This document shows positions 7,827-49,206 of a stretch of DNA of 64,000 nucleotides, one piece after another (the first letter of the stretch is position 1; each line of letters starts with the position of its first letter). A program made the translations under genes and the position numbers. The DNA lies in NCBI GenBank assembly GCA_001793895.1, contig MGIT01000001.1:106508-170507 (forward strand). Direction: 5' to 3'. Origin of the DNA: Candidatus Wolfebacteria bacterium RIFOXYB1_FULL_54_12. Its GTDB lineage: Bacteria > Patescibacteriota > Minisyncoccia > UBA6257 > UBA9933. The notes beneath the pieces are model-generated. The model did no database searches, was not told where the DNA came from, and saw nothing but the letters and a program-made list of their open reading frames with translations.

Positions 7827-7850
7827 TTATTTTATTCAAATCCCTTTCGG

Positions 7851-7922
7851 TGCCGCGGGAGGGAGTTGAACCCCCGACGCTTGCCTCTTCAGGGCAACGC
7901 TCTACCGCTGAGCTACCGCGGC
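7851..7922 (-). tRNA. tRNA-Phe (GAA)
   Basis: Reverse complement: GCCGCGGTAGCTCAGCGGTAGAGCGTTGCCCTGAAGAGGCAAGCGTCGGGGGTTCAACTCCCTCCCGCGGCA. The anticodon arm is TTGCC-CTGAAGA-GGCAA. Confidence 0.9.
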
Positions 7923-7990
7923 TTATACACCTATTCAAGATGTGCAATCATTATACATGGTTGGAATTTTTTTTCAATCCCAATCCCCTG

Positions 7991-8022
7991 TTATTGGTTA
8001 TAGGTTATTAGTTATTGGTTAT
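7991..8022. repeat. GGTTAT-type low-complexity repeat
   Basis: The sequence ttattggttataggttattagttattggttat lies between tRNA-Phe and tRNA-Pro. Confidence 0.8.
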
Positions 8023-8027
8023 CTTAG

Positions 8028-8098
8028 TCGGAGAGCCGGGAATCGAACCCGGACCATATGCTCCCAAAGCATACATACTACCACTATACTACTCTCCG
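8028..8098 (-). tRNA. tRNA-Pro (TGG)
   Basis: Reverse complement: CGGAGAGTAGTATAGTGGTAGTATGTATGCTTTGGGAGCATATGGTCCGGGTTCGATTCCCGGCTCTCCGA. The anticodon arm is TATGC-TTTGGGA-GCATA. Confidence 0.88.
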
Positions 8099-19408: not shown

Positions 19409-21829
19409 CTAATAAGTCGAATAGGCGTAGTCAAACACGGCATGAGCTACTGTCTCTAAACTTTTAGCACTACATTTATCGAGCGTATCGCCAGTCGTAT
19501 GATATGGCGGGTATTCAAAATCAATCAACAGGAAACTCGGAATTCCAGCTCGATTGAGCGGGGTGTGATCATCTTGGACACTTTGCCCAACCTTATCTTG
19601 AAAAACGTGGCTGTCCACTTTTTGCGCAATACTCCAAAATGCGTCCGCTTGAGACTGGGCATTTTGCACGGATGATTGCTCCTTGTAAATTCTCAAGTCT
19701 TTATCGCACACCATATCAAGAACAAGTGCGGATACCGGTATATTATTCCCATAAAGTTCGCTCAAATGTTCGGAAAAATAAGTAGAACCGAGAGGTCTCC
19801 AATTGCTATAATCACTGCCTTGATTTATATCTCCCTCTTCTCCATCAAAGAAAACGATGTCCACGCCAACACTCGGTATCACATGAGAATTGCCGAGTAT
19901 CCGCGCTAATTCCACAAGGACGGCAACACCCGAAGCAGAGTCGTTGCCCCCTGGCACTGGTTGATCTTTGTATACGTGATCCTTATCCGCAAGTTTTTTA
20001 CTGTCATAATGTGTCGCTAAAATAATGCGCCGTTCTTGGGTTGGGTATAGACGGCCTATGATATTCGATAATTTATGGATTTTACCGTCTGTCCCTTTGT
20101 AATCCCACGATTGTGTAATTACTTCGTTGGTTTGTTCTTTCATCTCCGCAATTAGAAATTTCTGCACGTTTTCATGCCCGGGTGCGCTCATGTGGCGCGG
20201 CCCATACCTTAGTTGTTGGTTTATCACGGCAAGCATTTCGTTGCCATCAATAAACGGTTTTTCCTTAAAAGTACGCCGGAGAACTTCGGACGTTAAGTAC
20301 TCAACCGGAGAAAAATTGTCGGTGAGAATTGGGTATGGAGACAAATTAAATCTGTCCAAGTTGATAACTTTATTTCGAAGCGAGCTAATGATTGAGTTCT
20401 CATTTTGCAGAATTGAAGCCGCGCTCAAATCAATTTTTTTATTACCATTCCATCCAACCAAAATAATATTTTGGGAATCTGTTTTTCCGGGAGTTTCAAC
20501 CGCAAAAAAATAACTATTTGGAAAAACACTTTGAAAAGTTTTTATCTCCGCAAAAATAAGAGATGGCTCTTGTCTTGATAAATCTCCGATTAAATTAGCG
20601 ATAAACAATCCATCGTCAGATAATTTCTCTTTTGCGATGGTAAAAAATTCCTGCGTTGTAAAGTGAGCAGGAATGGAAAAAAGAGAATGGTACGCATCGC
20701 TAAATATAAAATCATATTTTTTATTCGAATCCCAAAGCAGGCGACGACCATCTTCAGTATAATTGTATAGATTTGAATTGTCTTCTACGGCAAAATATTC
20801 TTTTGCTAATGCCAATAACGATGGTTCAATTTCTGAAACATCGAGTGTCGCGTTTGGCAACTCCGCTAAAAGGGCCTTCGGTATAGAATATGCGCCACCG
20901 CCTATAACTAAAGCATTTCGTACGTCCGGCTTGAAAACTTTGTAGAGAGAATAGTATTTCGTGTATTCATAAACGAGATCGGCCGGGTTATCCGAATCGA
21001 GAAACATCGCACCGGAACCACTCCGATCCTGTTGAAAAAATCTTGTCGGCCTGCTTTCAAACATACCATCGTAGATGGTGATTTTTTCGTAAATACCATC
21101 TTTGCTGTACAATACATCGCCTTTTGTTTGCTGAACCGCAACAATGGTAATAAGGGCTAAAGTGACAACGGCAACCAAAGACTGGGTTAGGCGTTTTTTG
21201 TCAAAACCAAATACCGTAAGTGGGATAAATCCGAGAAGGAAGAGAACAACTCCTGTGGCAATAAAAATATGGTCTATGCCAAAATTAGGTATAAGCACAA
21301 AACCCGCAAGTAGACTGCCAATGATACTCCCCAGAGTAGACCAAAAAAATATTTTACCCGAAACACTTCCCACTCCCTGCTCTGGTGCTTGAAGACTCTG
21401 TAATTTTATAGCATAGGGCGACAAAGTGCCGAGCAATAACGCAGGAACAAGGAACAGCAGCAAAGAAGAGATCAGTGGTCCGCTTGTAAGTGAAAGATTT
21501 TTGCTTAAAATTGGAAGAATTATCAAACCAAAAAAATGAAATACAAGGACAAGAAGACCGCTTACGAGAATTATCCCGAAGAACCACCGTAACGATGGGT
21601 GACGATCTGCAAATTTTCCGCCCACATAATATCCTATGCTAAGAGCTGCGAGTATAACACTTATTATACTTGATACAGTAAAAATTGTGTTTCCATAGTG
21701 AGGCGAAAGGACACGGACGGCAACGACTTCAATAATCAAAACACACGCCCCAGTGATAAATACTGAGATTGGCAGCAAATTTTGCTTTAAAAATTTGTTC
21801 ATGTATTTAATCATGGTAGCAGTTTGCAT
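19409..21829 (-). CDS. Fusion protein: polytopic membrane spermidine-synthase-like domain plus M28 peptidase/glutaminyl-cyclase-like domain
   Basis: The N-terminus has about 7 TM helices. The SAM-fold motif is ALVIGGGAYSIP. The C-terminal M28 motifs are ATHYDS, GGNDSASGVAVLVELARIL, FFDGEEG and DDHTPL. Confidence 0.8.
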   Translation of the reverse strand: MQTATMIKYMNKFLKQNLLPISVFITGACVLIIEVVAVRVLSPHYGNTIFTVSSIISVILAALSIGYYVGGKFADRHPSLRWFFGIILVSGLLVLVFHFFGLIILPILSKNLSLTSGPLISSLLLFLVPALLLGTLSPYAIKLQSLQAPEQGVGSVSGKIFFWSTLGSIIGSLLAGFVLIPNFGIDHIFIATGVVLFLLGFIPLTVFGFDKKRLTQSLVAVVTLALITIVAVQQTKGDVLYSKDGIYEKITIYDGMFESRPTRFFQQDRSGSGAMFLDSDNPADLVYEYTKYYSLYKVFKPDVRNALVIGGGAYSIPKALLAELPNATLDVSEIEPSLLALAKEYFAVEDNSNLYNYTEDGRRLLWDSNKKYDFIFSDAYHSLFSIPAHFTTQEFFTIAKEKLSDDGLFIANLIGDLSRQEPSLIFAEIKTFQSVFPNSYFFAVETPGKTDSQNIILVGWNGNKKIDLSAASILQNENSIISSLRNKVINLDRFNLSPYPILTDNFSPVEYLTSEVLRRTFKEKPFIDGNEMLAVINQQLRYGPRHMSAPGHENVQKFLIAEMKEQTNEVITQSWDYKGTDGKIHKLSNIIGRLYPTQERRIILATHYDSKKLADKDHVYKDQPVPGGNDSASGVAVLVELARILGNSHVIPSVGVDIVFFDGEEGDINQGSDYSNWRPLGSTYFSEHLSELYGNNIPVSALVLDMVCDKDLRIYKEQSSVQNAQSQADAFWSIAQKVDSHVFQDKVGQSVQDDHTPLNRAGIPSFLLIDFEYPPYHTTGDTLDKCSAKSLETVAHAVFDYAYSTY

Positions 21830-21889
21830 ATGATTAGTCTATCCGCCATTGTATTTTTTAAGCGAGGACTATTTTCAAAATATTTCACA

Positions 21890-21934
21890 AAAACAAAGAC
21901 CACGCATTTTAATGCATGGTTTTTGTTTTTGTGG
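21890..21934. repeat. 45-bp direct repeat, right copy; also the terminator hairpin after tRNA-Ala
   Basis: The sequence aaaacaaagaccacgcattttaatgcatggtttttgtttttgtgg overlaps the last 3 nt of tRNA-Ala. Confidence 0.85.
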
Positions 21935-22002
21935 ACCTAGGCGGAATCGGACCGCCGTCTCAGCAATGCGAATGCCGTGTTCTACCACTAGACTATAGGC
22001 CC
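21932..22002 (-). tRNA. tRNA-Ala (CGC)
   Basis: Reverse complement: GGGCCTATAGTCTAGTGGTAGAACACGGCATTCGCATTGCTGAGACGGCGGTCCGATTCCGCCTAGGTCCA. The G3:U70 identity pair is present, and the anticodon loop is TTCGCAT. Confidence 0.88.
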
Positions 22003-26665: not shown

Positions 26666-27760
26666 TCAACGCATAACCCCACCTCCGATGACAACTCCAT
26701 CGGCATCGTAAAATACGGCAGATTGTCCCACGGCAACAAACCGTTGCGGTTCATCGAATTGCAACCGATAGGCCTCACCATCGGCGACCAATGTCGCCGC
26801 AAACAACGGCTGGCGATAGCGGATGCGCACCATGACCGGAATGGACTTCGGGGGGGCTATGGCGCACATGCCCATGAAATTAAGTTCAACAAGGCCAATA
26901 TCCGCACATGCCTGCTCAAGCAAATGATCATCATGCGAAACCGTGATGACATTGCTTGCGACATCTTTTTTGACCACAAAATACGCCGGTCCGCCCCCGA
27001 CATGCAATCCGTGCCGTTGCCCGATGGTATAAAACCACACACCCTCGTGCTCGCCCACCTTCACTCCGTCGACGGTAACAATGTCGCCCTTCCGTTTCGG
27101 CAGATACTGTTCCAAAAATTCACGCAACGATATCTTCCCCAAAAAACAAATACCTTGGGAATCTTTTTTCTGCGCCGTCGGAAGTCCCGCGGCCGCCGCA
27201 ATCTCCCTGATCTTCGGCTTTTCATAGGCACCGATCGGAAACAAACAATGCCGCAGTTGCTCCTGCGTAAGCGTCCACAAAAAATAACTCTGATCTTTAT
27301 TCCCATCAATCCCTTTCTGTAATGAGTAAGTAGTTTCCTGTTTTTTGTTATCGGTTATAGGTTGTAGGTTATAGGTTGCGCTTCGCGCATAATGCCCCGT
27401 CGCCACATAATCAGCCCCCAACGCAAGCGCCTTTTGCAAAAACACGCCAAACTTGATTTCCTTGTTGCACATCACATCCGGGTTCGGGGTAATGCCGTTG
27501 CGATACCCGTTGACCAAATATTCCACCACGAATTGTTTGTATTCTTCTTCAAGATCGATGACATAAAACGGGATGCCCAAATGTTCGGCAACGCGCCGCG
27601 CATCTTCCGCTTCGCGGTCTTGGCATCCGTCCATGTTATATCCTTTAATGAACGCGCCGATCACATCATAAGTCCCCTGCTCGCGCAACAAAAAAGCGGC
27701 GACACTCGAATCGACGCCGCCCGACATCATGACAAATACTTTTGGCTTTAAACCATTCAT
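26666..27760 (-). CDS. mnmA: tRNA 2-thiouridine(34) synthase MnmA with a repeat-derived in-frame insertion
   Basis: Motifs seen: the PP-loop MMSGGVDSSVAA, ATGHYAR and NKDQSYFLW. The segment ATYNLQPITDNKKQETTY is encoded by the GGTTAT repeat. Confidence 0.92.
   Translation of the reverse strand: MNGLKPKVFVMMSGGVDSSVAAFLLREQGTYDVIGAFIKGYNMDGCQDREAEDARRVAEHLGIPFYVIDLEEEYKQFVVEYLVNGYRNGITPNPDVMCNKEIKFGVFLQKALALGADYVATGHYARSATYNLQPITDNKKQETTYSLQKGIDGNKDQSYFLWTLTQEQLRHCLFPIGAYEKPKIREIAAAAGLPTAQKKDSQGICFLGKISLREFLEQYLPKRKGDIVTVDGVKVGEHEGVWFYTIGQRHGLHVGGGPAYFVVKKDVASNVITVSHDDHLLEQACADIGLVELNFMGMCAIAPPKSIPVMVRIRYRQPLFAATLVADGEAYRLQFDEPQRFVAVGQSAVFYDADGVVIGGGVMR
27347..27378. repeat. GGTTAT-type repeat inside the mnmA CDS
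   Basis: gttatcggttataggttgtaggttataggttg. Confidence 0.8.
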
Positions 27761-27817
27761 ACTATCGGAAGCCTACCAAAAAAGACATAAAAGTAAACCC
27801 CCGCCGGTAAGGTGGGT

Positions 27818-28432
27818 TTATATGATGATGCTTGTCAGGCTTAATGCGGCAATAATGTATCCGGTCGATACAAGCGCGATTGCATACCCGATAAAAAACG
27901 GCAGGCCGAGCGCCGTATATGCTTCGCGCAAAAAAATGTCACGAATGAGGCTGATGACGACCACAGACAAAAACACGGCCGGCACGAACACCACAAAATG
28001 CGGCCACCCGACAACAAGTGCCAGCAACGCCCCAAGTTCCACTTCGCCTTCTTCAAAATAACGCGGATTATGCGCTCGCAACGCGCGCAGTACCGCAAAA
28101 AACAGCAAGGCCGCACCGATGGACACGATCGCGTTGAGCCAAAAATGGGTCCAACTGTAGTGCAACAGAACGGCAACGCTTTGATGTGGCGGCAGAAAAA
28201 ATCGCGTAAGTTCGGTTCGCATCCATGCATAATATTGCAATGCCGTTCGCACCCCCGCGAACAATAATCGAAAGACCGCGACGCCGAATGCAAATCGCAA
28301 GAATATGCGCCGTCTATCCGCCATTGGCCTGTAATACATAACGCATACCGCAATGGCAACCGCAAAAAGAGCGCCGGTGCGCACCCAATCGATCGAAGAA
28401 GAGAATAGAAACTGTAAAAATGATTCGCGCAT
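27818..28432 (-). CDS. Polytopic membrane protein, function unknown
   Basis: There are six or so hydrophobic helices. EGEVELGALLALVVGW vaguely recalls A24 prepilin peptidases, but the catalytic Asp motifs are not seen. Confidence 0.55.
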   Translation of the reverse strand: MRESFLQFLFSSSIDWVRTGALFAVAIAVCVMYYRPMADRRRIFLRFAFGVAVFRLLFAGVRTALQYYAWMRTELTRFFLPPHQSVAVLLHYSWTHFWLNAIVSIGAALLFFAVLRALRAHNPRYFEEGEVELGALLALVVGWPHFVVFVPAVFLSVVVISLIRDIFLREAYTALGLPFFIGYAIALVSTGYIIAALSLTSIII

Positions 28433-28439
28433 GCGATCG

Positions 28440-29009
28440 TTACGCTTTTTCCACGCGCTCGGCGTACTCGCCAGTCTGCGTATTTACACGAATGATGTCG
28501 TTTTCGTTGATGAACATGGGTACATTCACCTTTGCGCCTGATTCAAGGACCACGACCTTAGTGCCGCCTTGTGCGGTATTGCCCTTGATGGCCGGAGGAG
28601 CTTCCGCAACCCGGTATTCCATTTTGACCGGCAACCGCACGGCGAATATCTTTTCGTTAAAAATAAGGGCGACCACTTCCATATCCGCCTTTAGAAAATC
28701 TTTTTGATCGCCGACAGTTTCTTCGGTCAAGCTGAACCGCTTGCCCGGATTTGCCGATTCGCAAAACCAAAACTCGCCTTTACTTGCATACAGATATTTC
28801 GATTTCAATTCTTCCACTTCGGCTTCTTCAAATTCGTCGGCCGGCTTAAAGTTGCGCGACAGCACCTGGCCGGTGCGCAGATTCTTCAATTTCGTCTGCA
28901 CGGAAGAACCTCCCCGTCCGACGTGCTGATGCGATATCTCGATCACGGTGAACGGATCTCCGTCCATAATGATAGAACTTCCTTTTTCCAAGTCGTTGAT
29001 GTCAAGCAT
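28440..29009 (-). CDS. efp: Elongation factor P
   Basis: The sequence contains DLEKGSSIIMDGDPFTVIEISHQHVGRGGSSVQTKLKNLRTG. Confidence 0.93.
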   Translation of the reverse strand: MLDINDLEKGSSIIMDGDPFTVIEISHQHVGRGGSSVQTKLKNLRTGQVLSRNFKPADEFEEAEVEELKSKYLYASKGEFWFCESANPGKRFSLTEETVGDQKDFLKADMEVVALIFNEKIFAVRLPVKMEYRVAEAPPAIKGNTAQGGTKVVVLESGAKVNVPMFINENDIIRVNTQTGEYAERVEKA

Positions 29010-29026
29010 GTATTGTTTATAATCTC

Positions 29027-29088
29027 TGTCATTCCCGCGGAGGCGGGAATCTATTTAATACTGGATTCCCGCCTCCGCGGGAATGACA
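29027..29088. repeat. Archetypal 62-bp composite GTCAT-hairpin element
   Basis: The sequence is tgtcattcccgcggaggcgggaatctatttaatactggattcccgcctccgcgggaatgaca. It consists of two inverted units around a tatttaatactgg core. Confidence 0.95.
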
Positions 29089-29106
29089 ACCTTTCTGATT
29101 CACTTA

Positions 29107-30858
29107 TTACAAATCCCCCTTCTCGCTCTTGTGTGGTTGCTTTGGTCGTTCTTCGGGGGTAGCTTCTTTTCTTTTTTGTAATGATTCTTCGATTGCCTTT
29201 TTCAGGTCATCAATATTGACCGCCTTTTTCTCGAACACATGTTTTGGCCTATCCTGCGGCATACTGCGAAGTCTATCGTCCATCGCTGGGCGATGCGGCA
29301 CAGGGCTGGCGCCACGATCTCCGCTAAATGGCCGCACGCTCGTCGGCCTATCGGTCAACGGCCCGTCCTGGGATGCCCGCGCAAACGACGGTCTGTCCTG
29401 CCTGCCCGCCGTAGTGTTAGCGGAGGAGGAATCCGCCGGCTGGCGGACGAAGGGTTTACGCTCGAAAGAAGGCTTCGGCGCTTGCGCACGAGGGGTTAGA
29501 GTCGAGCTCAACGACCGCTCGTCACGGCGCATAACCTTATCTGCCATGGATGTCTTACCCGACCCCATATATTCCTTGGCGATCATTTCATCCACCAACG
29601 CCTTAGGCATGGAATAATTTCTGCGGGAGTTTTCAATAATGACATCCTCGTAATTCGGCTGCGGGATTGGATACGGCGGCAAGGTCTCTGCCGAAAATGG
29701 TCTCGATGCCTGGCCGTCAACCAACAATTTAAGGTAAATATGCCGGTTTGACAAGCCGATCATATCTTGCGGCGTAAACTCGGGTTCGAATTCCTTTTCA
29801 AAAAATACGGCGTCGATGGCGCCAACGCGAAACATAGCCAAGGTGCCAATGTTGCCGACGATTGCCTCTGCAAGCCCTTCTTCTTTTTTAAGCTGATCGA
29901 CATACTGGTGGGCCAGCGTCAAGCCAAGTCCGTATTTGCGCGCCTCGGCGAAGATCTTCGTAAATGAACCGGTAGAAAAGTTTTGAAACTCGTCGATGTA
30001 CAAAAAGAACGGCCTGCGTTCGCTCTCGGGAATATCGATGCGGCTCATGGCGGCAAGCTGGATTTTGGTAATGATCATGGCGCCGAGCAATGCGGAATTG
30101 TCTTCGCCGAGACGGCCCTGCGAAAGATTGCAGATCAATATCTTGCCTTCATCCATTGCCTTGCGCATGTCGATGGTCGACTTCGGCTGGCCGATGATGT
30201 TACGGATGACCGGATTGGAACTGAACTGCCCTACCTTGTTCTGCAACGGTGCAATGGCCTCGGTCATGAACTTGTCGGTATATTTTGCAAATTCGTTTTC
30301 CCAGAACGACTTAATGACCGGGTCCTTTAAATTGGAAACGACCTTCAGGCGGTACTCTTTCTCCGCAAGCATGCGCATAATACTCAGTAAGGTCGTTCCC
30401 GGATATTCCAAAAGCGCCAACAGGGTATTGTTCAAAATATATTCCATGCGCGCAGACCATGCGTCCACCCAGATTTTTTGAAACACACCCATCACCGCCG
30501 ACGCGACAAGGTGCGCATGTTCGTCACCGACGCGTTCAAGCGGATTAAATCCGACCGGATTTTCGATATCGGCCGGATTGACATAAATGACATCCTTGAT
30601 GCGGTCTTCTGGCACATGCTTAAGCAACTCTTCGACGAATTCGCCATGCGGGTCGAGCACGGCAACACCAAATCCGTTCTTGATGTCGTTGATCATCAAG
30701 TTTTTCATCATGGTGGTCTTACCCGTGCCGCTCTTCCCGACGATGTACATATGCCGCAGGCGGTCGTTCATTTTGATGCCAAAATTAACGCTTTGATTGC
30801 GAAAATTCGTCTTTGCAAAAATTGAAATTTCTTTGTTGCTCATAGGGCTATTTGTCAT
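29107..30858 (-). CDS. VirD4/TraD/TrwB-like (type IV coupling protein-like) P-loop ATPase with a disordered C-terminal tail and no N-terminal TM segment
   Basis: Walker A is in VGKSGTGKTT and Walker B in FFLYIDEFQNF. LTLAHQYVDQL and GNIGTLAMFRVG are also present. The last about 150 aa are P/R/S-rich low complexity. Confidence 0.75.
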   Translation of the reverse strand: MTNSPMSNKEISIFAKTNFRNQSVNFGIKMNDRLRHMYIVGKSGTGKTTMMKNLMINDIKNGFGVAVLDPHGEFVEELLKHVPEDRIKDVIYVNPADIENPVGFNPLERVGDEHAHLVASAVMGVFQKIWVDAWSARMEYILNNTLLALLEYPGTTLLSIMRMLAEKEYRLKVVSNLKDPVIKSFWENEFAKYTDKFMTEAIAPLQNKVGQFSSNPVIRNIIGQPKSTIDMRKAMDEGKILICNLSQGRLGEDNSALLGAMIITKIQLAAMSRIDIPESERRPFFLYIDEFQNFSTGSFTKIFAEARKYGLGLTLAHQYVDQLKKEEGLAEAIVGNIGTLAMFRVGAIDAVFFEKEFEPEFTPQDMIGLSNRHIYLKLLVDGQASRPFSAETLPPYPIPQPNYEDVIIENSRRNYSMPKALVDEMIAKEYMGSGKTSMADKVMRRDERSLSSTLTPRAQAPKPSFERKPFVRQPADSSSANTTAGRQDRPSFARASQDGPLTDRPTSVRPFSGDRGASPVPHRPAMDDRLRSMPQDRPKHVFEKKAVNIDDLKKAIEESLQKRKEATPEERPKQPHKSEKGDL

Positions 30859-30990
30859 TCCGAATTTATTTCGGAATCTCGTGGTAAAATGCCAAGATCC
30901 TGTATCCGTCAGCCGACGAACGGAAGGATCTGTTTTGCATTGTCATACCGGCGGGTGAGGGCCTGTCCTCGACCTGATCGGGGACCTGTC
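30853..30990. repeat. GTCAT-hairpin units, partly degenerate
   Basis: tgtcattccgaatttatttcggaatc; gatcctgtatccgtcagccgacgaacggaaggatc; tgtcataccggcgggtgagggcc... Confidence 0.8.
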
Positions 30991-31028
30991 AATTTCGTGC
31001 GATACGCACACCATAATAATGCATTCTA

Positions 31029-31120
31029 ATTCCGTTATCCGTTATCGGTCATCCGTTTTCGTTTTCGGTTATAGGTTATTAGTTGTAGGTTTTAGGTTAT
31101 TGGTTATCAGTCATTGGTTA
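31029..31120. repeat. CCGTTAT/GGTTAT repeat tract downstream of the 447-aa gene (includes its stop codon)
   Basis: attccgttatccgttatcggtcatccgttttcgttttcggttataggttattagttgtaggttttaggttattggttatcagtcattggtta. Confidence 0.85.
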
Positions 31121-32461
31121 TTCTATCGGCAAATTCTCCGGAGGCTCGCCTTTCTTTGCCTCGATACGGCGCATACTCGGCGCGGTAACCAACGATGACG
31201 GAACATGGTAAAGCGTAGCCAACTCTTCTATGGAAAAGACGGGAGCCTTCTTTATCATGATCCGCTGGCGGTATGCAAAGAACATTGCCCTCTTTTTCAA
31301 AAATTCCTGATGCTTTTTCCACGCCGGAAACAGCCATGCCTTGAAACCTTTCGGCGGGTTTACCGACGTATCCCTGTTTGGCTTGAACGAATTGATATGC
31401 TGGGAACCGAATTGCTTGAATGAGCCGATGATCCCCCCTATATAGGACTTATGAAACGTTTCCTGCCGATCGATAAACACTGCACGCACGCTCACTTCAT
31501 AGCACAGTTTGGATATTTTTCCTTCAATGCCTTCAAGTACTTCCTTTTCAGAAAAGCTCAAAGACGCAATCGTCTTGGGTGGAGCGTCGGATTTTTTCGG
31601 CGGCTCGGGCCATTCCGGAGTGCTTATGAATACAAGAAAAAAATTCTTGATCCACATGACAAGATGATCAAATATGCTCAATTTAGGAGCGACCTTCACC
31701 TCACGGCCTAACATTTTATCGACGATCGCCTGTCCCTTCTTTTTGTAGTCGCTCGTTTTTTCGCCGGTCGGCTTGGATATATATTGCACGAAGATCATTT
31801 CATTCTCGCGGAGCTTCGACATGGTTTCCAAAATGACCGTAAGCGGATCAAGTCGTTGCTCTTCCTCTTTCTCTTCAAAATAGGCGTATGTCTTAATCGG
31901 ATATGCGCTGTCTTTGTCGAGAACCATATCGACGCCCCATACATCATAAACATCGTTGGGCAACATCATCGGCAAGAAGCTGAGATAGTCTTCGACAAGG
32001 GCTATTTCCGCGGCGGGATATTGCGCAAACAATGCGGACTCCACCAAATTGCGGTGCTCGGCAGGTACGCGCACATAAAAATATACACCGCCGCTTCGCC
32101 CGACCATTTCAAACGAAAGGGCGTTTTGAACCTTCCCTTTGATATTTTCATCCCACCATTTGATCTCGCCGGCATAGGTGCCATGTACCGTGGCAAACAC
32201 CTGTTCCATGGATTTCGGACTGCGCAAATTTTCCTTGGGGATGCGCAATTCAAGCACGACCCACTTTTGCGCCTTCTTTGCCGCTTTTTTGTTCGAGTCG
32301 ATGTACAGGTCCCAAAGATAGAACGCCAAAACAACCGGAACGACGGCCCACCATACGTACGAAAAGACCTCGCCAATGCTTTGCGCAATGCCAAGGATGA
32401 TATTCTGCACGACCGGTGTGATCGAAAAATAGTCCAGTAGAAAGTCTGAAATGTTTGCCAT
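31118..32461 (-). CDS. Membrane protein (N-terminal TM hairpin plus large soluble domain), partner of the T4CP-like ATPase
   Basis: The TM region is VVQNIILGIAQSIGEVFSYVWWAVVPVVLAFYLWDLYI, followed by VLELRIPKENLRSPKSMEQVFATVHG. No family was recognised. Confidence 0.7.
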   Translation of the reverse strand: MANISDFLLDYFSITPVVQNIILGIAQSIGEVFSYVWWAVVPVVLAFYLWDLYIDSNKKAAKKAQKWVVLELRIPKENLRSPKSMEQVFATVHGTYAGEIKWWDENIKGKVQNALSFEMVGRSGGVYFYVRVPAEHRNLVESALFAQYPAAEIALVEDYLSFLPMMLPNDVYDVWGVDMVLDKDSAYPIKTYAYFEEKEEEQRLDPLTVILETMSKLRENEMIFVQYISKPTGEKTSDYKKKGQAIVDKMLGREVKVAPKLSIFDHLVMWIKNFFLVFISTPEWPEPPKKSDAPPKTIASLSFSEKEVLEGIEGKISKLCYEVSVRAVFIDRQETFHKSYIGGIIGSFKQFGSQHINSFKPNRDTSVNPPKGFKAWLFPAWKKHQEFLKKRAMFFAYRQRIMIKKAPVFSIEELATLYHVPSSLVTAPSMRRIEAKKGEPPENLPIE

Positions 32462-32523
32462 GTATCTCTTTTAGTATATCGCAAAATGGTCCAACAAAAA
32501 AGAGACACTCGTCTCTTTTTTGC

Positions 32524-32575
32524 ATTCCGTTATCCGTTATCCGTTTTCGGTTATTGGTTATTGGTTATCCGTTAT
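32524..32575. repeat. CCGTTAT/GGTTAT repeat tract upstream of the 447-aa gene
   Basis: The sequence attccgttatccgttatccgttttcggttattggttattggttatccgttat is in the same orientation as 31029-31120 and shares its first 18 nt. Confidence 0.85.
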
Positions 32576-33619
32576 TTACGCAACATGATATGTTCCGTTG
32601 TCCAATCGTTTGAAATATTTTTTGTTCTGCAAGTTAAGCAGAATGGTGTTTTCCTTCAAGAATCGCTGAGAGGAAACCAACTGCACGACCTCATGCTGGG
32701 CAAGCGGGCCATTGTCAACAAGCACCTGCTTGATGACGTCCTTTGCCGTACCCGGGAAAAATCCATGCTCGGTCAAACCATACATACCGCGACCTACAAG
32801 GACAAATCGTCCATCCTTGATCAATTCATTATGGATCGTCTGTGCATACACCGGCTTTTTATCGAACCCGACCGAATTGATCGTAGTGGCGATATCGCGG
32901 AAGTGCATCGGCTTGCCATGCTTGCGCAAGATAAGATATGCCTTTGCGCGCGCGGTCTTCGGCGTGATCTCTTCCCAATGGGAAAGACCAAAGTCGGAAT
33001 ACGGATTCACGGAAAACTGTTTCGAGATGCCGAGGTAGTTCATGCCGACGGCGCGGTCGACGTTCGAAGCGGTCGCAACCTGCTTGAAGTGCGGATCGAA
33101 TTGACCCTTGAAGACTATTTCTTCTTTCTTGCCGCCAAAGAACTTGACCGCCTTTTCAATGAAAGTCTCTGCCTTTTTGACGACAGCCTTGTCCGAAGCC
33201 CAAAACCCATAGGAATGATCGCTTTCAGCATGGTACATCGGCTCGCCGGCAATGCGGAAAAGGAAGCGGAACTGATACTTGTTCACGGTCGCATCTTTCA
33301 ACACCGTGCGCATGTCTTCGACAAAATCATCTTCCTTGCGAACGCCGCCCAAGGCAACGAGTTGCTCCTTGGCGATTTGCACCAGGCGATCGCCGCCTGC
33401 ATCGCTAAAACGTTCCCGCGCCAAACGAAGCCCTTCTGCCTCTATCTGGCGCACGCGCTCACGGGTAATGCCGTTGCGTTCGCCGAGTTCCTGCAGGGTC
33501 TTTTCCTGTCCATCGCGAAGTCCAAAACGTTCCTCGACTATTTCTCGCTGTCGAGCGGACAATGCGTGCGTTACCTGTTCGATGATATTGCCTGTGTTCT
33601 TCATAAGAGTTGAATCCAA
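32576..33619 (-). CDS. Sigma-70 region-4 domain fused to a C-terminal HARE-HTH-like domain
   Basis: N-terminus: LSARQREIVEERFGLRDGQEKTLQELGERNGITRERVRQIEAEGLRLAR. C-terminus: AYLILRKHGKPMHFRDIATTIN...IHNELIKDGRFVLVGRGMYGL. Confidence 0.75.
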   Translation of the reverse strand: MDSTLMKNTGNIIEQVTHALSARQREIVEERFGLRDGQEKTLQELGERNGITRERVRQIEAEGLRLARERFSDAGGDRLVQIAKEQLVALGGVRKEDDFVEDMRTVLKDATVNKYQFRFLFRIAGEPMYHAESDHSYGFWASDKAVVKKAETFIEKAVKFFGGKKEEIVFKGQFDPHFKQVATASNVDRAVGMNYLGISKQFSVNPYSDFGLSHWEEITPKTARAKAYLILRKHGKPMHFRDIATTINSVGFDKKPVYAQTIHNELIKDGRFVLVGRGMYGLTEHGFFPGTAKDVIKQVLVDNGPLAQHEVVQLVSSQRFLKENTILLNLQNKKYFKRLDNGTYHVA

Positions 33620-37658: not shown

Positions 37659-37668
37659 ACATAAAAAT

Positions 37669-37699
37669 AACCTATGACCCATAACCAACAACCCATAAC
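37669..37699. repeat. GGTTAT-type repeat (reverse orientation)
   Basis: aacctatgacccataaccaacaacccataac. Confidence 0.75.
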
Positions 37700-37741
37700 A
37701 AAAGAAATCGGGATGCAAGGGTGAAACAGAAAGCAAACATA

Positions 37742-37846
37742 TGTCATCCTGATCCGTCAGCCGACGGATTCAGGATCTCCCCGCAAAAACACGAGATTCC
37801 GGCTCCCCGTATCGTGGTACGGGGCAGGCTCCGGGCCAGAATGACA
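37742..37846. repeat. GTCAT-hairpin cluster
   Basis: tgtcatcctgatccgtcagccgacggattcaggatc...gagattccggctccccgtatcgtggtacggggcaggctccgggccagaatgaca. Confidence 0.85.
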
Positions 37847-37865: not shown

Positions 37866-38825
37866 TTACTTAATACCCCTCTTAAGCACTGTTGTCAATT
37901 TTTTCAATTGCGCATCATAGGTGGCCTTGTCGCGCGCTTCCACATTTAACCGAACTAACGATTCGGTATTGGAAAGCCGCACGTTGAACCACCAATCGGG
38001 ATCGGCAAAGTCCATGGCAATGCCATCGATCTTCGATATAGCCTTTGCGTCTTTTTTATATGTCCGTTCTATGTGCGCAAACAATCCGGCGGGCGCAATG
38101 GAAGACGAAACAGGGACATTGATCTCCGGCGACCGATACGTTTCCGGCAAGAGGTCTACGAATTCCGACAGCGCATACGGCAATCGCGCAAGCGCGTTCA
38201 GCACCGCGACGGCCGCCATGATGCCCGAATCGCAATAAAAAAAGTTTTTAAAATAATAGTGCCCCGATCGCTCGCACCCGAATTCGGCGCCATTTTTCCG
38301 CATGGCGTGTTTCATGGCGTAATGCCCTGTCTTGCCCGCAATGCGTTTTGCGCCAAGCAGCGACTCGTCCCGAGTGAAATCGAGGGATTGCCGACGCACA
38401 AGCCATCCGTCTTTTGCATCGGTCACAAATCGATTCGGACGCAAGGACCACAGCAACAGATACGCCACGACATCCGGGTCCACAAAACGACCCTTGTCGT
38501 CGACGAAGAAAACACGGTCTCCATCCGCATCAAAGATGACACCTATATCGGCACCATTGGAAACAACGCTCTTTTGTAACGCGCGCAACGAACCGGCATG
38601 CAACGGATCCGGCGCATGATTCGGGAAGTTCCCATCAGGCTGACCATTCAAAATAGCCCATTCCCTTTTTTCCTTTTTCCTTTTTCCTTTTTCCCTGAGT
38701 GCCTCCATGATCGGCCCTGTAGCCCCGCTGGAACAATCAAAAACAACATCAAGCGTTTTTGCATCGTCGCGCAAAAACCCGTTCAAAAACGAAACATATT
38801 CATCGACAAAGGGTGAGGTATTCAT
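37866..38825 (-). CDS. Phosphomannomutase/phosphoglucomutase family protein lacking N-terminal domain I (possible gene remnant)
   Basis: Present: the metal loop FDADGDR, the sugar loop GCERSGH and the phosphate-binding VRLSNTESLVRLNVEA. No TASHNP-type phosphoserine loop is seen. The ORF starts where domain II normally begins. Confidence 0.7.
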   Translation of the reverse strand: MNTSPFVDEYVSFLNGFLRDDAKTLDVVFDCSSGATGPIMEALREKGKRKKEKREWAILNGQPDGNFPNHAPDPLHAGSLRALQKSVVSNGADIGVIFDADGDRVFFVDDKGRFVDPDVVAYLLLWSLRPNRFVTDAKDGWLVRRQSLDFTRDESLLGAKRIAGKTGHYAMKHAMRKNGAEFGCERSGHYYFKNFFYCDSGIMAAVAVLNALARLPYALSEFVDLLPETYRSPEINVPVSSSIAPAGLFAHIERTYKKDAKAISKIDGIAMDFADPDWWFNVRLSNTESLVRLNVEARDKATYDAQLKKLTTVLKRGIK

Positions 38826-38874: not shown

Positions 38875-39414
38875 CTACGAAAAAGACCCTTGCAAGGTTC
38901 CGTCCTTGCCGGGGGCTTTTTTATTTAGTTCTATTTTATGCCGCACATCATGGCAATACACGATCGGCGCATCCGTTCGCTTCAACAGGATCGAGCACTT
39001 CTCGACCTTGCTCGGAGAAATAACCACTTCTAACTTTTCTTTCGTCTGCAAAAATTTTACCAGCCCGGCGTAATCACCATCGCTCGTGACAAGGACTTGT
39101 TTGTCGCAATTATTCTCAAATGCATCTACTGACGATTGCAATACGAGATCGGCATCGCAATTTCCCTTAGCCTCGCCCGAGCCATTATAAACGACCTCCT
39201 TGAATATCAATGTAAAGCCTGCCTTTTGCAAAGCGGTATAAAGATCTTTTTGCTTGGGAACAAGCCCTATAAAATAATACGCACAAACAACGCCATACTT
39301 ATCCGAAAGCCACCTTCTTAAGCGATACATGTCAACGCTCCAGCCGTCATTGCCCGTTCCGCGATACAAATTATTCCCGTCAATATACGCAAAATTTTTC
39401 TTGTAGCGATTCAT
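38875..39414 (-). CDS. NYN-domain (LabA-like) putative ribonuclease
   Basis: It contains FAYIDGNNLYRG and LVTSDGDYAGLV. The ATG at 39414 gives 179 aa. Confidence 0.75.
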   Translation of the reverse strand: MNRYKKNFAYIDGNNLYRGTGNDGWSVDMYRLRRWLSDKYGVVCAYYFIGLVPKQKDLYTALQKAGFTLIFKEVVYNGSGEAKGNCDADLVLQSSVDAFENNCDKQVLVTSDGDYAGLVKFLQTKEKLEVVISPSKVEKCSILLKRTDAPIVYCHDVRHKIELNKKAPGKDGTLQGSFS

Positions 39415-39500
39415 GCCATACTCAGTATACCAAAAATAAAACCAAAGCCCCATGTCAAACTCAAAAACCAATCGTAAAAAATAGCACCCCCACGCTCATC

Positions 39501-47904: not shown

Positions 47905-48016
47905 AATGCGCGGTTCTATTAATAGAACCGCGCATTCACCACCCTCCCACAAAAACAAAGAATCCGCTCGTCCATCAAATGGCGGACGAACAGATCCGGT
48001 AGAATTTCGCATCCCT

Positions 48017-48045
48017 GTTATTAGTTATAGGTTGCTGGTTGTTAG
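48017..48045. repeat. GGTTAT-type repeat
   Basis: gttattagttataggttgctggttgttag. Confidence 0.7.
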
Positions 48046-48502: not shown

Positions 48503-48609
48503 ACTGTATATGAATTATGAATACTAAATAATGGATTATGGTAAGGAATATGTCAAGAATCTCATCTGCATTCATTCATTATTCATGATTCATGCTTCTT
48601 GATTCACGC

Positions 48610-49206
48610 TTATATTTTTTGCAACTGCAACGAGTCCAACTCGACCGCAGTCTCTCGCCCGAAGATCGGCACAAGTACCTTGATCTTTGCGTGCTCCTGA
48701 TCGATATCGGATATCTTTCCTTCGTAGTCTTTGAACGGTCCGTCGGTGATCTTTACGATATCGCCAACGACATAATCCAAGGTAATTTTCTTCTCGCCAC
48801 CTTCCATGCGGGCGAGCAGAAAATCAACCTCTTCCTTCGACAACGGCGTCGGCTCGGTAGAATCCGATCCGACAAAACCGGTAACGCGCGGCGTATTGCG
48901 CACGACATACCATGAGTCTTCGCCCATGATCATGTCAACAAGCACATACCCGGGATAGATCTTTTCCTCGACTTCCTTGCGCTTTCCGTTCTTGATCTTG
49001 ATGCTCTTTTCCTTGGGAACGACGACGTTAAAGATCTTGTCATCCATTTCCAAAGAATCGACGCGCTGTTTCAAATAGCGCGCGACGGCATCTTCGTAGC
49101 CGGAATAGGTGTGCACGGCATACCAATGCCGCTCCCCTTTTTGGGAAAGTTCCTTTTTCTTCTCGGCCTTCTTTTCCGAAGTCGGTTGTGATGTTGTTTC
49201 AGTCAT
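48610..49206 (-). CDS. nusG: Transcription termination/antitermination factor NusG
   Basis: The NGN domain has HWYAVHTYSGYE. The KOW domain has GDIVKITDGPFKDYEGKISDI. Confidence 0.93.
   Translation of the reverse strand: MTETTSQPTSEKKAEKKKELSQKGERHWYAVHTYSGYEDAVARYLKQRVDSLEMDDKIFNVVVPKEKSIKIKNGKRKEVEEKIYPGYVLVDMIMGEDSWYVVRNTPRVTGFVGSDSTEPTPLSKEEVDFLLARMEGGEKKITLDYVVGDIVKITDGPFKDYEGKISDIDQEHAKIKVLVPIFGRETAVELDSLQLQKI

What the first reader, a model, noticed from the sequence alone, without database searches (positions are those of the whole stretch)
27347..32575. A second repeat family (GGTTAT/CCGTTAT) brackets one gene and is translated inside mnmA
T/G-rich tracts built from GGTTAT(T/A) and CCGTTAT occur at 7991, 27347, 31029, 32524, 37669 (reverse orientation) and 48017. 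The two longest copies, 32524-32575 and 31029-31120, are in the same orientation. They share the opening attccgttatccgttatc and sit immediately upstream and downstream of the 447-aa membrane gene, so that gene is bracketed by direct repeats. The copy at 27347-27378 lies inside mnmA. There it encodes ATYNLQPITDNKKQETTY between the conserved ATGHYAR and KDQSYFLW blocks, again in frame. On the minus-strand mRNAs the tracts read as AUAACC-type C/A-rich unstructured runs, so a role as a protein-binding or spacing element is conceivable. That role is speculation.
Basis: seen in the sequence. Interest (0 to 1): 0.5.

Follow-up and report, generated by a model that had tools for sequence, protein, structure and literature searches.

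The report
Seven-base tandem repeats in a Wolfebacteria genome
The GGTTAT/CCGTTAT tracts are real tandem arrays of a 7-base unit, a repeat class already known from cyanobacteria and giant sulfur bacteria; here they sit in a tiny-genome groundwater bacterium, mostly right at gene ends, once translated as a harmless surface loop of the enzyme MnmA, and they do not mark a mobile gene.

Summary
Six sites carry tandem heptamers that read ATAACCN/ATAACGG on the gene-sense (minus) strand: 16 motif hits against 0.23 expected. Period 7 is the only tandem period enriched in the window. In 738 kb of related CPR DNA, 21 arrays have period 7 and at most 2 have any other period from 4 to 12. Firmicutes controls have none.

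The unit differs by about one base from the TAACTGA heptamer of Beggiatoaceae, cyanobacteria and Bacteroidetes.

Most intergenic arrays abut gene ends. The mnmA copy is an exact 10-residue in-frame insertion at a beta-hairpin tip, and the single unit whose TAA would be in frame reads CAA.

"Bracketing" of the 447-aa gene (DUF8128) does not indicate mobility. The gene keeps its synteny in every relative examined, and the two flanking arrays occupy old post-stop sites with 0 to 13 units.

New here: many CPR mnmA genes carry in-frame heptamer arrays in this same loop, with different units. An apparent unit swap between 96.6%-identical genomes is a recombination patch.

Best reading: slippage-driven heptanucleotide simple-sequence repeats, tolerated wherever sequence is unconstrained. 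An RNA-level function is not excluded. This is a new member of a known kind, of moderate interest.

The parts
7990..8022 (-). Heptamer array, 4.7 units (sense ATAACCA ATAACTA ATAACCT ATAACCA ATAAC). It lies in the spacer between tRNA-Pro (8027-8098) and tRNA-Phe (7849-7922) and starts 4 nt after the tRNA-Pro 3' end.
   Evidence: unstructured as RNA (MFE -0.8 kcal/mol, z +1.0)
27329..27377 (-). In-frame heptamer array inside mnmA. The core is 27347-27377 (AACCTAT AACCTAC AACCTAT AACCGAT AAC, encoding TYNLQPITDN). Three degenerate AAC-phased units follow at 27329-27349 (KKQETT). The + strand G at 27364 turns the only in-frame TAA into CAA.
   Evidence: exact 10-aa gap against 9hlv/2hma; beta-hairpin tip, lowest pLDDT block
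26666..27760 (-). mnmA, tRNA 2-thiouridine(34) synthase. The public gene call starts at 27727.
   Evidence: residues invariant across homologs are retained
31031..31122 (-). Compound heptamer array of about 13 units (ATAACCN units followed by A(A/T)AACGG units). It overlaps the TAA stop (31118-31120) of the DUF8128 gene.
   Evidence: the orthologous site has about 3 units in L093, 5.6 in L095 and none in L085, L089 and L092
31118..32461 (-). 447-aa DUF8128 gene lying between the two long arrays. Its synteny is conserved in relatives, so it is not a mobile cassette.
32526..32575 (-). Heptamer array, 7.1 units. It begins directly after the TAA stop (32576-32578) of the sigma-r4/HARE-HTH gene and is followed by a terminator hairpin.
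   Evidence: the orthologous site has 3 units in L092, about 2.5 degenerate units in L093 and none in L085 and L089
32494..32523 (-). Terminator-like hairpin (13-bp stem plus a U run) directly downstream of the array. This is context, not part of the repeat.
   Evidence: conserved in L092 and L085
37667..37701 (+). The only copy with ATAACC on the + strand, so it reads GGTTAT on the mRNA-sense strand. It has 4-5 units and ends 8 nt upstream of the ATG (37658) of an RNase-H-like gene.
48017..48045 (-). Degenerate 4-unit copy (CTAACAA CCAGCAA CCTATAA CTAATAAC) just downstream of the rplK terminator hairpin.
38667..38694 (-). Heptamer array with a different unit, (GGAAAAA)x4. It lies in frame in the phosphoglucomutase-family gene and encodes KGKRKKEKRE, giving a segment at least 5 aa longer than in solved PGM structures.
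48574..48606 (-). Heptamer array with a different unit (sense CATGAAT, 4.7 units). It starts 3 nt after the nusG stop (48610-48612), in the nusG-rplK spacer.

Best explanation
The tracts are heptanucleotide long simple-sequence repeats: tandem arrays of a 7-nt unit (sense ATAACCN/ATAACGG, about one base away from the TAACTGA heptamer). They belong to the repeat class known as STRR or heptamer direct repeats in cyanobacteria, Beggiatoaceae, Xanthomonas and Bacteroidetes. Inferred mechanism: slipped-strand mispairing during replication or repair adds, removes and homogenises units in 7-nt steps, and homologous recombination shuffles array alleles between lineages. Arrays persist only where sequence is nearly free to vary: directly after stop codons and tRNA 3' ends, just before start codons, and at a solvent-exposed beta-hairpin tip of MnmA. 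In MnmA, selection demands only an open frame and hydrophilic residues, which fits the TAA-to-CAA change in the in-frame unit and the A-rich sense orientation. The two arrays flanking the DUF8128 gene are independent, old post-stop arrays and do not mark a mobile unit. Shown here: periodicity, excess over chance, gene-end placement, copy-number differences at orthologous sites, the in-frame insertion at the hairpin tip, stop-codon repair, and a recombination mosaic. Inferred: slippage as the generator, and near-neutrality.
For: Only period 7 is enriched. The window has 4 arrays under uniform relaxed criteria and none of any other period from 4 to 12. The CPR pool has 21 against at most 2; the Firmicutes pool has 0. 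Motif hits are 16 against 0.23 expected. Copy number differs at the same site in relatives: 7/3/~2.5/0 units after the sigma-like gene's stop and 13/5.6/~3/0 at the DUF8128 stop. In the window, 4 of 6 intergenic arrays start 0-5 nt after the upstream gene or tRNA end, and one ends 8 nt before a start codon. In other CPR loci, 7 of 15 intergenic arrays overlap the upstream stop. The mnmA insertion matches an exact 10-aa gap against solved MnmA. It sits at the tip of hairpin E125-132/E142-149, the lowest-confidence block of a model with pLDDT 88. Only the in-frame TAA is changed to CAA. The loop of CPR mnmA shows a pooled lag-7 identity of 0.37 against 0.25-0.32 at other lags, and 0.21 in Firmicutes. 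Even loops that look non-repetitive are decayed arrays. The loop 'unit swap' between L209 and L211 (96.6% identical) lies in a patch of about 90-120 nt with about 50% identity that also covers conserved codons, which indicates a recombination import. The literature reports a heptamer excess with a slippage hypothesis, stops in all three frames, overlap of ORF ends, and indels in 7-nt increments between strains.
Against: The same unit recurs at six sites in 64 kb. ATAACY units are kept at the same two intergenic sites in relatives whose DUF8128 proteins are only 48-72% identical. That is more conservation than free drift predicts, although seeding from the conserved ...GAA-TAA-C gene end could explain it. 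Orientation is biased: 5 of 6 sense in the window and about 10 of 12 when relatives are included, though some of those are orthologous sites and not independent. No copy-number polymorphism was seen, but the four available assemblies are 100.000% identical over 13-14 kb, so this is uninformative. mnmA carries about 14 times more arrays per kb than other coding sequence, and permissiveness alone explains this only weakly. The L095/L096 spacer swap has identical flanks.
Confidence: 0.6

Rival explanations
1. The arrays are RNA-level cis-elements: unstructured, A/C-rich, G-poor single-stranded tracts in 3' UTRs, operon spacers and leaders. They would bind a single-strand RNA-binding protein (S1-, CSP- or KH-type), or act as insulating, standby or Rho-loading spacers. 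This matches the post-transcriptional network proposed for TAACTGA repeats in Beggiatoaceae.
For: The sense orientation is preferred. The arrays are G-poor (0-18% G) and predicted to be unstructured. They abut stop and start codons. The ATAACY unit is retained at orthologous post-stop sites in distant relatives, while the mnmA loop unit drifts freely. A similar proposal exists in PMC4679880.
Against: Close relatives lack the arrays at the same sites with no other change to the locus (L085, L089). One copy is antisense. The same unit is tolerated inside a coding loop, where relatives use unrelated units. In coding regions the A-rich sense bias is explained by protein-level selection for hydrophilic residues. 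No binding factor has been identified.
Confidence: 0.25
2. The array polarity works at the DNA level. The arrays would be polar, replication-oriented motifs or binding sites for a nucleoid or segregation protein, co-oriented with the replichore.
For: GC skew is uniformly negative across the window, and 5 of 6 arrays share one orientation.
Against: Gene orientation and replication direction are confounded here, because nearly all genes are on the minus strand. Units differ between genomes and between arrays within a genome, which argues against a single DNA-binding specificity. One array lies inside a gene.
Confidence: 0.06
3. The mnmA array is a contingency (phase-variation) tract. Gain or loss of one 7-nt unit would switch MnmA on or off, as with the AAGACTC heptanucleotide tract of E. 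coli neuO.
For: A 7-nt unit inside a coding region shifts the frame unless the change is a multiple of three units. Some CPR mnmA arrays are nearly perfect, for example L011 GTATCAA x4.1 at 100% and L079 at 96%. The neuO precedent is in PMC13001214.
Against: The window's array is short and imperfect (4.4 units, 87% matches). Nearly all homologs retrieved are full length and in frame across the loop; the one exception, P0022, is frameshifted near the C-terminus, away from any array. The insert length is held at 10 aa in the close clade. No variant was seen in four assemblies, though they are identical strains. mnmA is a housekeeping gene.
Confidence: 0.04
4. The two long direct repeats delimit a mobile or recombining cassette that carries the 447-aa gene.
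For: There is an 18-nt exact match, plus a similar compound structure, on both sides of the gene in the same orientation.
Against: The gene is present in the same synteny in every relative examined, with or without arrays. There is no integrase or transposase, no terminal inverted repeats and no empty site. Each array belongs to its own upstream gene's stop codon.
Confidence: 0.02

Closest known systems
TAACTGA heptamer direct repeats of marine Beggiatoaceae, also found in some Cyanobacteria and Bacteroidetes (MacGregor 2015, PMC4679880)
   Same: They are tandem 7-nt units. (TAACTGA)n is the same string as (ATAACTG)n, so the window's ATAACC[A/T/G] unit differs at about one position, and L095 contains an exact TAACTGA. 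The forward orientation gives stops in all three frames. Arrays overlap the ends of upstream ORFs or sit a few nt from start codons. They are unstructured as RNA, and translation gives ...ITDN....
   Different: In the Beggiatoaceae genome (BOGUAY) most sets end about 1 nt upstream of start codons. Here most begin at the upstream stop codon or tRNA end. In BOGUAY the ORF-internal sets are in reverse orientation. Here the forward, stop-containing unit sits inside mnmA with the in-frame stop mutated. The host is a CPR bacterium, a group not named in that paper.
Cyanobacterial STRR and heptamer long simple-sequence repeats generally (Mrazek et al. 2007, as summarised in PMC4679880 and PMC4692102; Xanthomonas/Nostoc GGGNATC repeats)
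   Same: Period 7 is specifically over-represented among tandem repeats. Several unit families coexist in one genome. Arrays are mostly intergenic. Length and sequence vary between close relatives at conserved positions. Occasional inverted pairs occur.
   Different: The units here are A/C-rich and not G-rich, so no G-quadruplex potential exists. Within the sampled CPR loci a large share of arrays lie in frame inside genes. Mrazek et al. instead noted that coding repeats mostly have units that are multiples of three.
neuO heptanucleotide (AAGACTC) tract of E. coli K1 (PMC13001214)
   Same: It is a heptanucleotide tandem repeat inside a coding sequence, translated as a 7-residue periodic peptide and in frame only at certain copy numbers.
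   Different: The neuO tract is long (3-53 units), perfect, hypervariable and demonstrably phase variable. The mnmA array is short and imperfect, its length is conserved among relatives, and it shows no variation in the available data.

Membership tests
Heptanucleotide long simple-sequence repeats (STRR / TAACTGA-type direct repeats) | Head-to-tail tandem copies of a 7-nt unit, three or more copies | tested here: met
   TRF gives period 7 with 4.4-13 copies at the cited sites; motif hits are 16 against 0.23 expected
Heptanucleotide long simple-sequence repeats (STRR / TAACTGA-type direct repeats) | Period 7 specifically in excess over neighbouring periods | tested here: met
   In the window only period 7 is found; shuffles give 0. 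The CPR pool has 21 arrays of period 7 against at most 2 for any period from 4 to 12; Firmicutes have 0
Heptanucleotide long simple-sequence repeats (STRR / TAACTGA-type direct repeats) | The same unit dispersed at several loci of one genome, mostly intergenic and close to ORF boundaries | tested here: met
   Six ATAACCN sites in 64 kb, five of them intergenic; four start 0-5 nt after a gene or tRNA end and one ends 8 nt before a start codon
Heptanucleotide long simple-sequence repeats (STRR / TAACTGA-type direct repeats) | Copy number differs between related genomes at the same site | tested here: met
   7/3/~2.5/0 units and 13/5.6/~3/0 units at the two post-stop sites. Strain-level 7-nt step polymorphism was not observable because the available assemblies are 100% identical
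Phase-variable contingency locus (neuO-type coding heptanucleotide tract) | Copy-number heterogeneity within or between strains that switches the reading frame | tested here: inconclusive
   Four assemblies carry identical arrays but are identical strains. Homologs are in frame across the loop and the insert is held at 10 aa in the close clade. No read-level data were available
Phase-variable contingency locus (neuO-type coding heptanucleotide tract) | A long, near-perfect repeat tract | tested here: not met
   4.4 core units at 87% matches
Mobile cassette or transposon delimited by direct repeats | Presence/absence polymorphism of the enclosed gene between relatives | tested here: not met
   DUF8128 is present in the same synteny in L085, L089, L092, L093 and L095
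Mobile cassette or transposon delimited by direct repeats | Associated recombinase or terminal inverted repeats | tested here: not met
   The neighbours are a sigma-r4/HARE-HTH protein and a TrwB-like ATPase, with no recombinase domains; the flanks outside the arrays do not align
REP/BIME/MITE-type palindromic interspersed elements | An imperfect palindrome that forms a stable hairpin | tested here: not met
   The window's arrays fold no better than shuffles at the tRNA spacer (z +1.0) and only weakly elsewhere. Only the forward-plus-inverted array pairs in L095 and L096 form hairpins
Rho-utilisation (rut) type C-rich, G-poor unstructured tract | Rho-dependent termination downstream of the tract | not testable with these tools
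   The composition fits (C 20-32%, G 0-18%), but an intrinsic terminator already follows the 32526 array and no transcript data exist

The most novel reading that the evidence does not exclude
The heptamer arrays are not passive microsatellites. They would be a functional, polar RNA signal system in CPR bacteria: AUAACC-type tracts at gene ends recognised by a single-strand RNA-binding protein, as proposed but never shown for TAACTGA in Beggiatoaceae. The array resident in the MnmA hairpin would be maintained by selection across Paceibacteria as an evolvable module, rather than merely tolerated.
Probability: 0.18. Interest if true: 0.65.

Novelty: new member of a known kind. Interest (0 to 1): 0.42.

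Why it matters
This extends the puzzling bacterial excess of 7-base tandem repeats to the Candidate Phyla Radiation. I found no prior description of it there in the searched library.

It also gives a clean natural example of such repeats being translated. The beta-hairpin loop of the conserved tRNA-thiolating enzyme MnmA carries a heptamer array in many CPR lineages (10 of 51 loops have lag-7 identity of at least 0.5). The array's unit sequence drifts or is exchanged by recombination while the period persists, and the insert length is held at 10 aa in the window's close clade.

That makes the locus a tractable case for studying concerted evolution inside a gene, and for studying how new protein loop sequence is born from simple repeats.

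For annotation, it warns that direct repeats flanking a gene in these genomes need not indicate mobility.

Tried and rejected
1. **Mobile cassette.** Rejected by conserved synteny in five relatives.
2. **Composite element of array plus the neighbouring CCGTCAGCCGACGG hairpin element.** The flanks of the three candidate sites do not align.
3. **Autoregulation of mnmA through codons read by s2U34 tRNAs.** The Lys/Glu/Gln codon fraction is 28.3% in mnmA arrays and 27.7% in arrays in other genes, so there is no support.
4. **Active rewriting of array units.** This was suggested by unit swaps between near-identical genomes. For mnmA (L209 against L211, 96.6% identity) the swapped tract is a patch of about 90-120 nt with about 50% identity that also covers conserved codons, so it is a recombination import. 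The L095/L096 spacer swap remains compatible with a short import.
5. **Strain-level copy-number polymorphism.** The four assemblies are 100.000% identical, so the test is uninformative.
6. **Known RNA families.** Rfam finds only the six tRNAs.
7. **Viral or mobile source.** ATAACC x3 occurs in 109 stretches of viral contigs, including giant-virus MAGs. This shows a widespread repeat unit, not a specific vector; it was not followed further.
8. **Stop-containing units at post-stop sites as evidence of function.** I judged this circular, because an array overlapping an ORF end necessarily supplies the stop.
9. **Shared 3' end of the arrays** (ATAAC followed by GG or AGGG). Noted, but too weak to interpret.

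Full report
**Source and setting.** The window is the reverse complement of part of a 120.6-kb metagenomic scaffold (ENA ERZ28563683, ANAN16-1 scaffold_93). Locus L081 is identical to it. Its MnmA is identical to a protein named Candidatus Wolfebacteria bacterium MnmA (OGM93172.1). The organism is therefore a Candidate Phyla Radiation (Patescibacteria/Paceibacteria) bacterium from groundwater. Nearly all genes lie on the minus strand and GC skew is uniformly negative.

**Check of the observation.** All six tracts are present.
- Tandem Repeats Finder calls period-7 arrays at 7990-8022, 27347-27377, 31031-31122 and 32526-32575.
- The reverse-oriented copy lies at 37667-37701 and a degenerate copy at 48017-48045.
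- GGTTATNGGTTAT with up to 1 mismatch gives 16 hits against 0.23 expected. CCGTTATCCGTTAT gives 7 against 0.37.
- The 18-mer ATTCCGTTATCCGTTATC occurs only at 31029 and 32524.
- Four independent assemblies contain the same arrays, so they are not artefacts.
- Two more heptamer arrays with other units exist: (GGAAAAA)4 at 38667-38694 and (CATGAAT)4.7 at 48574-48606.

Read on the gene-sense strand, the unit is ATAACCN, grading into A(T/A)AACGG. Under uniform criteria, period 7 is the only tandem period from 4 to 12 found in the window; shuffles give none. In 738 kb of CPR loci fetched around mnmA there are 21 strict period-7 arrays, against at most 2 for any other period. In 553 kb of Firmicutes loci there are none.

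**Placement of the arrays.**
- The 32526 array begins directly after the TAA stop of the sigma-r4/HARE-HTH gene and is followed by a terminator hairpin.
- The 31031 array contains the TAA stop of the DUF8128 gene in its first unit.
- The CATGAAT array starts 3 nt after the nusG stop.
- The 7990 array starts 4 nt after tRNA-Pro, in the tRNA-Pro/tRNA-Phe spacer.
- The one antisense copy ends 8 nt before the ATG of an RNase-H-like gene.
- The 48017 copy follows the rplK terminator.

In other CPR loci, 7 of 15 co-oriented intergenic arrays overlap the upstream stop, and 6 end within 10 nt of the next start. In sense orientation the window's arrays are 45-55% A, 20-32% C and 0-18% G. They carry stop codons in all three frames, or in two frames for the degenerate 48017 copy, and they are predicted to be unstructured.

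**The mnmA copy.** Against solved MnmA structures (9hlv, 2hma), the window protein has a gap of exactly 10 residues opposite TYNLQPITDN, which is 30 nt and coincides with the array. An AlphaFold2 model (mean pLDDT 88) places these residues at the tip of a beta-hairpin (strands 125-132 and 142-149). The 131-140 block has the lowest confidence, 63. Residues invariant across homologs are retained. Each ATAACCN unit contains TAA. In the four core units only one TAA would fall in frame, and that one reads CAA (+ strand G at 27364). The AAC phase continues, degenerate, through KKQETT.

**The bracketing idea.** The 447-aa gene is a DUF8128 protein. The order sigma-r4/HARE-HTH, DUF8128, TrwB-like ATPase, EF-P is conserved in relatives whose DUF8128 is 91% (L093), 76% (L089), 72% (L092) and 48% (L095) identical, and also in L085. 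The table gives the number of ATAACC-type units at the orthologous positions.

| Site | Window | L092 | L093 | L095 | L085, L089 |
|---|---|---|---|---|---|
| After the sigma-like gene's stop | 7 | 3 | ~2.5 (degenerate) | 0 | 0 |
| At the DUF8128 stop | 13 | 0 | ~3 | 5.6 (plus an inverted array) | 0 |

The two arrays are therefore separate, old, expandable post-stop arrays, and the gene is not a cassette. Their shared compound 3' part may reflect exchange between arrays, but nothing suggests mobility of the gene.

**A wider pattern found on the way.** In MnmA homologs, the same loop carries peptides with a 7-residue period. These are translations of other heptamers: IQNSKFKIQN, ISNFKFQISN, ISNFEFLISK, KYEIRNME, MRHATCDMQH and ITDNQQPITNN.
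- DNA from relatives confirms the arrays: ACGAAAT in L087, AATTTCA in L092, AGGAAAA-like in L085, and a decayed CAAGNNN array in L089. All begin at the codon after His-Tyr-Ala/Val.
- In the close clade the periodic insert is 10 aa whatever the unit, and sister taxa can differ in unit.
- Across 51 CPR mnmA genes the loop is 15-61 aa long and its pooled lag-7 identity is 0.37, against 0.25-0.32 at other lags. In 35 Firmicutes genes the loop is 18-21 aa and lag-7 identity is 0.21.
- Some CPR genes have arrays at two or three loops.
- mnmA holds about 18 of about 34 coding arrays in roughly 6% of the sampled DNA, an excess of about 14-fold.

**Is there an active rewriting process?** Two cases suggested unit swaps between very close genomes.
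- L095 and L096 are 97.8% identical. They differ completely in the DUF8128-ATPase spacer: (ATAACTN)5 plus an inverted copy in L095, against (AAAACAT)5 plus an inverted copy in L096. Both spacers fold into long hairpins.
- Within one 90%-identity MnmA cluster, some members have ILNFKFEILNE and others ITDNHQLITNN.
- For the second case the DNA settles the matter. L209 and L211 are 96.6% identical, but a patch of about 90-120 nt starting at the array is only about 50% identical. That patch also covers conserved codons downstream, the signature of a recombination import from a diverged allele.

I therefore do not invoke rewriting. The L095/L096 case is compatible with a short import, but this is not proven.

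**Comparison with what is known.** Heptanucleotide repeats are reported as the most abundant long simple-sequence repeats in many prokaryotes. One hypothesis is that 7 nt matches the stretch held by the DNA polymerase and so favours slippage (Mrazek et al. 2007, as summarised in PMC4679880 and PMC4692102).

The closest described family is the TAACTGA direct repeat of marine Beggiatoaceae, some cyanobacteria and Bacteroidetes. (TAACTGA)n equals (ATAACTG)n, about one base away from the unit here. That paper also notes stops in all three frames, overlap of upstream ORF ends, a lack of RNA structure, the translation LITDN, and strain differences in 7-nt increments. Nostoc heptamers near promoters and start codons have been suggested to be regulatory. 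neuO shows a coding heptanucleotide tract acting as a phase switch.

I found no paper in the searched library linking heptamer repeats with CPR.

**Mechanism and confidence.** I favour slippage-generated and slippage-homogenised heptanucleotide repeats, retained where constraint is lowest and occasionally exchanged by recombination (confidence 0.6).

An RNA-level function is the main rival (0.25). It is supported by the sense bias, the G-poor unstructured composition, the gene-end placement, and retention of ATAACY units at the same intergenic sites in distant relatives. It is weakened by clean absence of the arrays in close relatives, and by the same unit being tolerated inside a coding loop.

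A test for autoregulation through MnmA-dependent codons was negative. Phase variation, a DNA-level polar motif and a mobile cassette are each unlikely.

**Verdict.** This is a new member of a known kind, with a noteworthy extension: resident in-frame heptamer arrays in the MnmA hairpin across CPR lineages.

Noticed in passing
window 30906-30919 and 37754-37767, plus weaker copies (2393, 16164, 29433, 52897, 53219, 62723): A second small repeat family with a palindromic core CCGTCAGCCGACGG: 16 hits at up to 3 mismatches against 4.9 expected. It lies in intergenic DNA next to three of the heptamer arrays. Relatives carry analogous hairpin elements (for example tcattcccgcggaggcgggaatga) at the same spacers. 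The flanks do not align with the arrays as a composite element.
   Followed up: partly
L095:9280-9382 against L096:3128-3232: Two groundwater strains 97.8% identical overall have completely different DUF8128-ATPase spacers. Each is built as a forward heptamer array plus its inverted copy, forming a long hairpin, but with different units (ATAACTN against AAAACAT).
   Followed up: partly
L209:10348-10435 against L211:8251-8347 (mnmA loop): Genomes 96.6% identical carry different loop alleles (ATTTTAA-type against ATAACC-type array) within a patch of about 90-120 nt of about 50% identity. This is a recombination mosaic whose 5' junction coincides with the start of the array.
   Followed up: yes
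L008, L017 and protein P0033, same MnmA loop: A different, conserved insertion of about 45 aa (…FRKQH..P.RK…S.RS..SG.KL.GL…) occupies the same hairpin loop in three distant CPR MnmA proteins. It may be a translated interspersed element.
   Followed up: no
L095:305-1318: One 337-aa ORF contains five separate heptamer arrays with different units (GAATTAT, AATCCGC, AAGAATT, CATAATT, ATGAATT), so the protein is largely built from translated heptamer repeats.
   Followed up: no
window 37866-38825 and 38875-39471 (minus strand): The phosphoglucomutase-family gene appears split. Domains II-IV are in a 319-aa ORF that aligns to residues 182-466 of solved PGMs, with a separate 198-aa ORF upstream. The relative L085 also has a 310-aa product with domains II-IV only, so the split seems conserved.
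   Followed up: partly
Viral contigs, loci L100-L179 and beyond: Exact ATAACCNATAACCNATAACC arrays occur in 109 stretches of viral contigs, including several giant-virus MAGs. Some have five or more consecutive matches or inverted pairs.
   Followed up: no
L085:10001-11182: The mnmA of this 77% relative is read as 393 aa with an aberrant C-terminus running into the next gene. This is probably a frameshift, possibly an assembly error in a long-read contig, and is unrelated to the array.
   Followed up: no
window 20001-22000: G+C content drops to 0.40, against about 0.49-0.52 elsewhere, within the 806-aa gene (19409-21829) and near tRNA-Ala.
   Followed up: no
window array 3' ends (7985-7995, 31031-31040, 32526-32535, 37694-37720, 48010-48020); L092, L093: In the ATAACC orientation, most arrays end in ATAAC followed by GG or AGGG(AT), for example ATAACGGAAT or ATAACAGGGAT. 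This is a weak shared terminal signature of unknown meaning.
   Followed up: partly
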